From Lachnospiraceae bacterium (GTDB lineage Bacteria; Bacillota_I; Bacilli_A; RFN20; CAG-826), in assembly GCA_963657245.1 (NCBI GenBank), contig CAVKLJ010000003.1, forward strand, positions 65,219 through 129,218: DNA of 64,000 bases, in the 5' to 3' direction. Of the stretch, positions 10,847-11,757 are shown piece by piece (the stretch's first letter is position 1; the number at the start of each line of letters is the position of its first letter). The notes beneath the pieces were generated by a model. The model saw nothing but the letters and a program-made list of their open reading frames with translations. It made no database searches and had not been told where the DNA came from. The translations under genes and the position numbers were made by a program.

Positions 10847-11757
10847 ATGTACTCGTATAAACCATTAGAAAAAAACTGGACGCCCTAAGAATAACTAAAT
10901 CCGATTTAGTAAAAGAACTAGGCATATCATCTAGAACAATCGCAAAGATTTCAAAAGGCGAGAAAATAGCTAATCATGTTCTTTTAAAAATCGCCAATTT
11001 TTGTTCATGCTCACCAACAGACTTATACATAGAAAAACTAGATAACAACATTTTACAAATATTACGCGAAGAAAAAGAAGCCAAGATTTCTGGAAGGCTT
11101 TATCACGAACTGCAAGTAAGGATGACATATAATTCAAACCATATTGAAGGCTCAAAATTATCAGAAGATCAAACGCGTTTAATATTCGAAACAAGAACAC
11201 TAGATGTTGCAGACAATATTTCCATTGATGATATCATCGAAACTAGTAACCATTTCAGAGCAATTGATTACGTAATTGACCACGCGCTTGAGCCTTTAAC
11301 AGAAGATATCATTAAACATTTGCACCTTCTTTTAAAACAAAGTACAAAAGACTCAAATCTAGATTGGTTTGCAGTTGGTGAATACAAAAAGATACCGAAC
11401 ATTGTTGGTGGAAGAGAAGCTTGTAAGCCAGCTGAAGTAAAATCAGCAATGGCCACATTAATAAGAGAATATCAAAAGAAAACGAATATAAGCATAAACG
11501 ACATTGTTGAATTCCATGCAAATTTCGAATTCATCCACCCTTTTCAGGATGGAAACGGAAGAGTTGGAAGATTAATTGCATTAAAAGAATGCCTAAGATT
11601 TAACATTACTCCATTCATAATTGAGGATTCGAAAAAGTCTTTTTACTATAGAGGCCTCTCCAATTGGAAAAAAGATAAAGCATGTCTGCTAGATACATGT
11701 TTAGATAGTCAGGACACTTTTAGAAGACTTCTAAAAACGCTCGATATAGAAGAATAA
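10847..11757 (+). CDS. XRE-like HTH fused to a Fic (AMPylase-family) domain; needs a -1 frameshift at A_AAA_AAC (10870..10876), or is a fresh pseudogene
   Basis: ATG 10847 encodes MYSYKPLEKN and stops at 10886. The -1 frame, open from 10861, continues KKLDALRITKSDLVKELGISSRTIAKISKGEKIANHVLLKIANFC..., which is an HTH. That frame runs into the Fic motif HPFQDGNGRVGR. The track lists only 11122..11757. Confidence 0.6.

What the first reader, a model, noticed from the sequence alone, without database searches (positions are those of the whole stretch)
10847..10910. The HTH-Fic gene is split at a canonical -1 slippery heptamer, A_AAA_AAC
ATG 10847 opens MYSYKPLEKN and the frame stops 4 codons later. 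The -1 frame continues ...LDALRITKSDLVKELGISSRTIAKISKGEK..., which is an XRE-like HTH, and runs uninterrupted into a Fic domain (HPFQDGNGRVGR).

The junction is G_AA A_AAA_AAC at 10868-10876, containing an A7 run. A -1 tRNA slip on A_AAA_AAC lands exactly in the Fic frame (next codon CTG at 10876). An A7-to-A8 change would also fuse the frames.

The first nine codons match the usual N-terminus of this HTH family (M..SY.PL.K.L), so the upstream piece is genuine coding sequence. A weak hairpin, CTAAAT-ccg-ATTTAG, lies 17 nt downstream.

Four explanations are possible:
- programmed -1 ribosomal frameshifting;
- transcriptional slippage;
- a phase-variable on/off switch for a potentially toxic AMPylase;
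- a very recent pseudogene or a sequencing error.
Basis: partly seen in the sequence, partly recalled or inferred. Interest (0 to 1): 0.6.

Follow-up and report, generated by a model that had tools for sequence, protein, structure and literature searches.

The report
Freshly frameshifted HTH-Fic gene
One strain's HTH-Fic gene, a candidate phage-defence gene, has lost a single base; that loss both broke the reading frame and created the "slippery" A-run, so this is an ordinary, very young broken gene and not a programmed frameshift.

Summary
ATG 10847 opens MYSYKPLEKNWTP* and an A7 run lies at 10869-10875. A_AAA_AAC (10870-10876) is in phase. The -1 frame runs on through an XRE-type HTH and a Fic domain to 11757, with no ATG/GTG/TTG before 11122.

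The split is not conserved. About 78 orthologs encode one continuous protein of about 303 aa starting MYSY/MISY. A conspecific contig (99.6% identical over 7.1 kb) differs by a single gap. It reads GAAAATAAACTG (E-N-K-L) where the window reads GAAAAAAACTG. A sister species reads GAAAACAAACTT, so the interrupted, in-frame run is ancestral. The deletion itself created the A7 tract and the heptamer.

Nothing else in the gene is damaged. No stimulatory RNA structure follows the site (z = -0.76). In-phase A_AAA_AAC occurs 157 times in this genome's long ORFs.

An independent assembly (Logan, SRR13434591) has the same A7, and the genome shows no excess of homopolymer frame breaks. An assembly error is therefore unlikely. 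Reads could not be inspected.

Best reading: a recent strain-specific loss-of-function frameshift in a defence island, next to a decayed AbiEi gene. Trace leak-through or A7-to-A8 reversion is possible but would be incidental.

The parts
10807..10835 (+). Promoter-like site TTTACT-17-AATAAT. It ends 12 nt before the ATG and no Shine-Dalgarno sequence lies between them, so the mRNA may be leaderless or have a very short leader.
   Evidence: consensus scan only, 9/12 matches. The upstream 199 nt are identical in the conspecific with the intact gene.
10847..10888 (+). 0-frame stub: 13 codons (MYSYKPLEKNWTP) plus TAA. The first 8 codons are the true N-terminus of the HTH-Fic protein.
   Evidence: Orthologs start MYSYKPLE.
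10869..10875 (+). A7 tract created by loss of one base. The conspecific has AAAATAAA here and the sister species has AAAACAAA. The gap falls after 10872.
10870..10876 (+). In-phase A_AAA_AAC heptamer, an incidental product of the deletion.
   Evidence: There are 157 in-phase copies in this genome's long ORFs.
10876..11757 (+). Body of the HTH-Fic gene in the -1 frame. It contains the XRE-type HTH (about 10864-11028), the inhibitory-helix motif SNHIEG (11134-11151), the Fic domain (11293-11583) and the Fic motif HPFQDGNGRVGR (11536-11571). There is no other lesion.
10894..10910 (+). Weak A/U-rich 7-bp hairpin, 17 nt after the heptamer. It is also present in the intact allele and is not a credible frameshift stimulator.
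   Evidence: region z-score -0.76; 39 of 200 shuffles fold at least as well.
11122..11757 (+). The 211-aa ORF from the first canonical start in the Fic frame, which is what gene callers report. It lacks the HTH and about 27 residues of the Fic module as aligned to CdFic. AAGG abuts the ATG, so there is no properly spaced ribosome-binding site.
8448..9076 (+). Context: neighbouring AbiEi-type antitoxin pseudogene with a frameshift near 8640 and an in-frame TAA near 8696. No AbiEii partner is present.

Best explanation
The locus is an ordinary single-ORF gene for a 303-aa cytoplasmic protein. The protein has an N-terminal XRE/Cro-type HTH fused to a glutamate-autoinhibited Fic (AMP-transferase-type) domain, and it matches PADLOC's defence-candidate family PDC-S04.

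In this strain one base was lost from codon 9. The ancestral GAA AAY AAA CTG became GAA AAA AAC TGG. This deletion shifted the frame and also fused two short A-runs into A7, which produced the in-phase A_AAA_AAC.

Translation from ATG 10847 therefore ends after 13 codons, and the HTH-Fic body has no usable start of its own. The gene is switched off: it is a very young pseudogene, or loss-of-function allele, in a variable defence island.

Shown here: the lesion, its derived state, the intact conspecific allele, and the absence of other damage.

Inferred: that the lesion is real in the DNA and not a read or consensus error, and that no useful amount of full-length protein is made.
For: 1. About 78 orthologs from genome contigs, plus thousands of 303-aa database proteins, are single ORFs starting MYSY/MISY. 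None is split.
2. The syntenic conspecific contig L094 (GCA_963588665.1) is 99.62% identical over 7111 nt with exactly one gap. That gap is the missing T of GAAAATAAACTG.
3. The outgroups L001 and L095 read GAAAACAAACTT, so the in-frame interrupted run is ancestral. Both amino-acid differences between the two strains lie on the other strain's branch. The window's branch has only the deletion and one synonymous change.
4. The Logan assembly of SRR13434591 is 100% identical to the window over 6636 nt, including the A7.
5. The assembly is not indel-prone. Frame switches occur at 0.8-1.3% of homopolymers against 0.66% of random positions, and 87% of the genome lies in ORFs of at least 150 aa.
6. 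No stimulator is present. The downstream fold has z = -0.76, its hairpin is 17 nt away, and the 22 nt between the ATG and the A-run contain no Shine-Dalgarno-like sequence.
7. In-phase A_AAA_AAC is common in this genome (157 copies), so it is not a special signal here.
8. A neighbouring AbiEi gene is also decayed. The Fic gene is patchy within the genus: 5 of 36 other species in the genus have a match at E <= 1e-40.
Against: - The MAG and the Logan contig may derive from the same reads, so a systematic read error or a mixed population is not excluded.
- A_AAA_AAC is a proven, low-efficiency bacterial -1 site in IS1 with no known stimulator (PMC4066793). Some full-length protein may therefore still be made.
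- The gene body shows no further decay. That fits recency, but it also fits continued use.
Confidence: 0.78

Rival explanations
1. Sequencing or consensus error: the real DNA carries the eighth base (AAAATAAA or A8) and the gene is intact.
For: Single-base indels next to homopolymers are the commonest assembly error. The allele is seen in only one sample lineage, the MAG plus Logan SRR13434591. Reads could not be checked.
Against: Two different assemblers give the same sequence. There is only one indel in 7.1 kb against the conspecific. Homopolymer-associated frame breaks show no genome-wide excess. The change removes a non-A base, which is not a simple run-length miscall.
Confidence: 0.1
2. 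Functional recoding or a reversible switch. In this reading the A7/A_AAA_AAC site supports -1 ribosomal frameshifting (product ...EKNLDAL...) or transcriptional slippage (product ...EKKLDAL...). Alternatively it flips between A7 and A8 in the population. Either way a potentially toxic Fic defence protein would be kept at trace or on/off levels.
For: - The heptamer is in phase, and a slip lands exactly in the Fic frame.
- A_AAA_AAC drives IS1 frameshifting without a stimulator (PMC4066793).
- In-frame A8 (E-K-K) orthologs exist (L031, L032), so an A8 revertant should be functional.
- The gene body is undamaged.
- The genome seems to use homopolymer switches elsewhere: it has 13 G/C tracts of 8-10 nt.
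Against: - The site is not conserved. None of about 78 orthologs has the split, and the conspecific has an interrupted run.
- No stimulatory structure or Shine-Dalgarno-like element is present.
- In E. coli A_AAA_AAC is much less shift-prone than A_AAA_AAG (PMC5009743).
- There are 157 in-phase copies in ordinary genes and 479 A/T7 runs, so the tract is not special.
- The genome's apparent contingency tracts are poly-G/C of 8-10 nt, not A7.
- The 0-frame product is a meaningless 13-mer.
Confidence: 0.08
3. N-terminally truncated Fic: the frameshift unhooks the HTH, and a 211-aa Fic-only protein is made from ATG 11122.
For: ATG 11122 opens a 211-aa ORF that retains the SNHIEG inhibitory motif and the Fic motif. 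Gene callers report it.
Against: - There is no properly spaced ribosome-binding site; AAGG abuts the ATG.
- The product would lack residues 66-92. These align to the first 27 or so residues of the stand-alone CdFic structure, so the fold would be incomplete.
- No ortholog has this architecture among the hits listed.
Confidence: 0.04

Closest known systems
Ordinary recent frameshift pseudogene (strain-specific loss-of-function allele) in a bacterial defence island
   Same: There is a single disabling indel relative to intact orthologs. The state is derived, the gene is accessory and patchily distributed, and a decayed neighbour (AbiEi) lies nearby.
   Different: Nothing of note. It is simply very young, with no second lesion.
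IS1 insA-insB' -1 programmed frameshift at A_AAA_AAC (A6C motif)
   Same: It has the same heptamer in the same phase, in a bacterium, with no downstream stimulator (PMC4066793, PMC12428005).
   Different: In IS1 the motif and the two-ORF layout are conserved across the family and both products function. Here the motif is unique to one strain, it was created by a deletion, and the 0-frame product is a 13-residue stub.
'Savior'/compensated indels rescued by low-level frameshifting or transcriptional slippage at homopolymer runs (reviewed in PMC5009743)
   Same: An indel in or creating a homopolymer run could be partly compensated by slippage.
   Different: There is no evidence of compensation here, and the tract is only 7 nt long.
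Clostridium difficile CdFic (PDB 4X2C/4X2D/4X2E), a Fic AMP-transferase with an inhibitory glutamate motif
   Same: Residues 66-299 align to CdFic 2-231 (E about 1e-31). The inhibitory motif S-x-x-x-E-G and the Fic motif HPFxDGNGRxGR are both present.
   Different: The window's family carries an extra N-terminal XRE-type HTH (residues 1 to about 61), and its targets are unknown. CdFic's own physiological targets are also unknown (PMC8097203).
PADLOC defence candidate PDC-S04
   Same: The match is strong (E=7e-102) and covers the whole profile.
   Different: PDC-S04 is only a candidate. One native-host test found no defence activity (10.1101/2024.12.20.629700).

Membership tests
Programmed -1 ribosomal frameshift site | In-phase X_XXY_YYZ slippery heptamer at the frame junction | tested here: met
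   A_AAA_AAC lies at 10870-10876 in phase. However, 157 such in-phase heptamers occur in ordinary long ORFs of this genome.
Programmed -1 ribosomal frameshift site | Stimulatory element: a stable hairpin or pseudoknot about 5-9 nt downstream, or an upstream Shine-Dalgarno-like sequence | tested here: not met
   The only hairpin is a 7-bp stem with 6 A-U pairs and one C-G pair, 17 nt downstream. The region folds no better than shuffles (z = -0.76). No G-rich Shine-Dalgarno-like sequence lies in 10847-10869.
Programmed -1 ribosomal frameshift site | Conservation of the split and of the motif among orthologs | tested here: not met
   None of about 78 orthologs is split. The conspecific and the sister species have in-frame AAAAYAAA.
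Programmed -1 ribosomal frameshift site | Measured trans-frame product | not testable with these tools
   This needs a reporter assay or mass spectrometry.
Phase-variable contingency locus (homopolymer switch) | A hypermutable tract that is conserved as a tract, with its length varying between strains or reads | tested here: not met
   Between strains the difference is the loss of an interrupting T, not a change in tract length. A7 is common in this genome (479 runs). The genome's outlier tracts are G/C of 8-10 nt. Read-level heterogeneity could not be tested.
Pseudogene / loss-of-function allele | ORF disrupted relative to intact orthologs, with the disruption derived | tested here: met
   (outgroup polarisation).
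Pseudogene / loss-of-function allele | No alternative start that would restore a complete product | tested here: met
   The first ATG/GTG/TTG in the Fic frame is at 11122. That product lacks the HTH and part of the Fic module.
Pseudogene / loss-of-function allele | Lesion real in the DNA (supported by reads) | tested here: inconclusive
   An independent Logan assembly agrees, and the genome shows no excess of homopolymer breaks. No read pile-up was possible.
Fic family with intramolecular inhibitory glutamate (CdFic/FICD type) | Fic motif HxFx(D/E)GNGRxxR | tested here: met
   HPFQDGNGRVGR at 11536-11571. Pfam Fic E=1e-15.
Fic family with intramolecular inhibitory glutamate (CdFic/FICD type) | Inhibitory motif (S/T)xxxE(G/N) on a helix N-terminal to the Fic core | tested here: met
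   SNHIEG at 11134-11151 aligns with SNKIEG of CdFic. The motif definition is from established knowledge (Engel et al. 2012) and from PMC8097203.
Fic family with intramolecular inhibitory glutamate (CdFic/FICD type) | AMP-transferase activity | not testable with these tools
   This needs a biochemical assay.

The most novel reading that the evidence does not exclude
The one-base deletion is a 'throttling' indel. By creating A7/A_AAA_AAC at codon 9 of a probably leaderless mRNA, it would reduce a toxic candidate defence enzyme to the trace level set by ribosomal or transcriptional slippage. The gene could still revert, because in-frame A8 (E-K-K) orthologs occur naturally. That would make this a contingency locus caught at birth in a defence island.
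Probability: 0.06. Interest if true: 0.45.

Novelty: already known. Interest (0 to 1): 0.12.

Why it matters
It matters little beyond correct annotation. The gene should be labelled as a frameshifted HTH-Fic (PDC-S04-type) pseudogene, not as a 211-aa Fic protein or a recoding site.

It is also a clean example of a general trap: a single-base deletion inside an A-rich codon string automatically produces a textbook slippery heptamer, so such heptamers at frame breaks are weak evidence for programmed frameshifting.

If the small residual chance of leaky or reversible expression were real, it would show how a homopolymer switch on a defence gene arises.

Tried and rejected
- **Read pile-up.** I did not pass the run id learned from another tool to read laying, because that tool is meant to take ids vetted by the finder.
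- **Metagenome scan.** An exact-pattern scan of JGI metagenome contigs for the junction, allowing 7- or 8-base forms, found nothing.
- **Exact-sequence look-ups.** The hypothetical in-frame products (EKK and ENK versions) are not in the 15-billion-protein collection. The truncated 211-aa product is a one-member cluster.
- **More strains.** I looked for further strains through exact matches to the neighbouring ClpB, ATPase and AAA_33 proteins. Only the same two lineages appeared. One search used a wrong coordinate and was repeated.
- **Selection test.** A dN/dS test for relaxed selection is not informative, because only three substitutions separate the two alleles.
- **Internal-start Fic-only protein.** Considered and rejected: there is no ribosome-binding site and the fold would be incomplete.
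- **Alternative genetic code.** Not needed, because the neighbouring genes are intact under table 11.

Full report
**1. The observation**

- ATG 10847 opens MYSYKPLEKNWTP and stops at TAA 10886-10888.
- An A7 run lies at 10869-10875. GAA AAA AAC at 10868-10876 puts A_AAA_AAC (10870-10876) in the X_XXY_YYZ phase.
- The -1 frame is open from 10861 to 11757 and reads ...KKLDALRITKSDLVKELGISSRTIAKISKGEK... through to HPFQDGNGRVGR.
- Pfam finds HTH_26 (E=1.9e-9) and Fic (E=1e-15) in that frame.
- That frame has no ATG, GTG or TTG before ATG 11122, so the HTH part has no start of its own.

**2. Orthologs**

A search with the read-through protein found thousands of relatives. Nearly all of the 120 listed are 303 aa long and cover 99-100% of the query.

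I took the DNA of 80 relatives from the genome collection and read their first 16 codons.
- Every one with a complete N-terminus (about 78) is a single ORF beginning MYSY.../MISY... at an ATG, GTG or TTG. None is split.
- Most close relatives encode E-N-K-L at the junction with an interrupted run (GAAAAT/CAAA).
- Two (L031, L032) encode E-K-K with an in-frame A8.

**3. The decisive comparison**

The 90% protein cluster of the closest homolog contains a protein from NCBI assembly GCA_963588665.1. Its contig has the same gene order as the window: Fic, clpB, AAA_33, ROK, and so on.

That contig is 99.62% identical to the window over 7111 nt, with 26 substitutions and exactly one gap. The gap is at the junction. 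The conspecific reads CATTAGAAAATAAACTGGAC and the window reads CATTAGAAAA-AAACTGGAC.

Two contigs of a sister lineage (L001 and L095, 90% nucleotide identity) read GAAAACAAACTT. The in-frame, interrupted run is therefore ancestral, and the window's lineage lost the pyrimidine of codon 9.

That single loss shifted the frame. It also joined A4 and A3 into A7, which is the only reason a slippery heptamer sits at the break.

Polarising the other three differences in the gene gives a clear result.
- Both amino-acid changes (V35I, K302E) lie on the conspecific's branch.
- The window's branch has only the deletion and one synonymous change.
- The 199 nt upstream of the ATG are identical in the two strains.

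The lesion is very recent and is the only one.

**4. Is it an artefact?**

Indirect evidence argues against an error.
- The Logan assembly of SRR13434591 used a different assembler. It carries the same A7 and is 100% identical to the window over 6636 nt.
- Frame switches between long ORFs occur at 0.8-1.3% of homopolymer runs against 0.66% of random positions.
- 87% of the genome lies in ORFs of at least 150 aa.
- The change removes a non-A base, which is not a simple run-length miscall.

The MAG and the Logan contig may still rest on the same reads, so I leave about 10% for an error or a mixed population.

**5. Is it recoding?**

A_AAA_AAC is a proven bacterial -1 site in IS1. There it works at low efficiency without a known stimulator (PMC4066793). 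In E. coli it is much less shift-prone than A_AAA_AAG (PMC5009743).

Several findings argue against programmed recoding here.
- Nothing marks the site as selected. It is absent from all orthologs and from the conspecific.
- The downstream region folds no better than shuffled sequence: -11.3 kcal/mol, z = -0.76, and 39 of 200 shuffles fold at least as well.
- The noted hairpin has 6 A-U pairs and one C-G pair, lies 17 nt away, and is present in the intact allele too.
- No Shine-Dalgarno-like element lies upstream of the heptamer.
- The genome has both Lys tRNAs (UUU and CUU) and one Asn tRNA.
- In-phase A_AAA_AAC occurs 157 times in 1341 long ORFs, so it cannot be strongly shift-prone in this organism.

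A trace of slippage, ribosomal or transcriptional, is physically likely at any A7. It would give ...EKNLDAL... or ...EKKLDAL... products, but it would be incidental.

**6. Is it a phase switch?**

The difference between the strains is the loss of an interrupting base, not a length change in a standing tract. A/T runs of 7 are commonplace (479 in the genome), while runs of 8 are rare (23).

The tracts that stand out in this 37%-GC genome are 13 G/C runs of 8-10 nt, against only 2 runs of 7. One of them lies in frame inside a lipoprotein gene of the window.

An A7-to-A8 reversion would give an E-K-K protein like that of two natural orthologs. Reversal is therefore possible, but nothing shows it is used.

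**7. What the gene is**

- Residues 66-299 of the intact protein align to the stand-alone Clostridium difficile Fic (4X2C/4X2E, E about 1e-31).
- The alignment includes the inhibitory motif (SNHIEG against SNKIEG) and the Fic motif. CdFic's physiological targets are unknown (PMC8097203).
- Residues 1 to about 61 form an XRE/Cro-type HTH.
- The protein matches PADLOC's defence candidate PDC-S04 at E=7e-102 over the whole profile. That candidate is unverified, and one native-host test was negative (10.1101/2024.12.20.629700).

The gene sits in a variable stretch of the chromosome.
- Next to it are a STAND-like ATPase with a winged helix (9244-10293) and an AbiEi antitoxin remnant.
- The AbiEi remnant has a frameshift and an in-frame TAA, and no AbiEii partner follows.
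- Earlier notes of this scan place a Schlafen-type cassette a few kb upstream.
- Five of the 36 other species of the genus match the Fic protein at E <= 1e-40.

The 211-aa ORF from ATG 11122, which gene callers report, lacks the HTH and the first 27 or so residues of the Fic module. It also has no properly spaced ribosome-binding site, so I do not expect a working product.

**8. Verdict**

- A real, derived, strain-specific one-base deletion has just inactivated an accessory HTH-Fic gene: about 0.78.
- Sequencing or consensus error: about 0.10.
- Functional recoding or a reversible switch: about 0.08.
- A truncated Fic-only product: about 0.04.

The finding is ordinary and interest is low.

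Noticed in passing
window 37005-37012 (and 12 other sites in the genome, e.g. C4:13789, C5:50197, C6:10619, C21:20609, C24:10266): This 37%-GC genome has 13 G/C homopolymer tracts of 8-10 nt but only 2 of 7 nt and 16 of 6 nt. Such an excess is typical of phase-variable contingency loci. The window's G8 lies in frame at about codon 99 of a 617-aa lipoprotein gene (36712-38565; the lipobox reads LAGC).
   Followed up: partly
window 10318-10393 and 10557-10626: Two arrays of short direct repeats fill the 553-nt spacer between the divergent ATPase gene and the Fic gene: TTGTACTT words, and five exact ACTTCAAYG words at 11-12-nt spacing. All five exact ACTTCAAYG matches in the 64-kb window are here (1.3 expected). 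Both arrays are conserved upstream of the intact Fic gene in a sister species (L095 1-60 and 190-235). They may be operator arrays for the HTH of Fic or for the ATPase's winged helix.
   Followed up: partly
window 8448-9076: An AbiEi-type antitoxin pseudogene. It has a frameshift near 8640 (YLLAGAI | YGPSYLSF) and an in-frame TAA near 8696 (GLIP*RVYTYTS), and no AbiEii toxin gene follows. It matches PADLOC AbiEi at E=3e-23 for the C-terminal piece.
   Followed up: yes
window 10807-10849: The only promoter-like site ahead of the Fic gene ends 12 nt before the ATG, and there is no Shine-Dalgarno sequence. The mRNA may therefore be leaderless or nearly so. The same sequence is conserved in the sister species.
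   Followed up: no
L031 and L032 (first 16 codons of the Fic ortholog): Two orthologs carry an uninterrupted in-frame A8 (GAA AAA AAA, E-K-K) at the same site. The codon 8-10 region is therefore a recurrent A-rich spot where single-base indels would be expected.
   Followed up: no
L013-L092 (record titles): Proteins 65-78% identical to this HTH-Fic occur in gut and rumen MAGs. The MAGs are labelled as Firmicutes, Bacteroidales, Bifidobacteriaceae, Coriobacteriia, Spirochaetes, Selenomonas and others. This suggests wide horizontal spread, though some bin contamination is possible.
   Followed up: no
L094 (contig end, corresponds to window 10648): The conspecific's contig stops 199 nt upstream of the Fic start, right after the ACTTCAAYG array. 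It is therefore unknown whether that strain has the ATPase and AbiEi part of the island.
   Followed up: no
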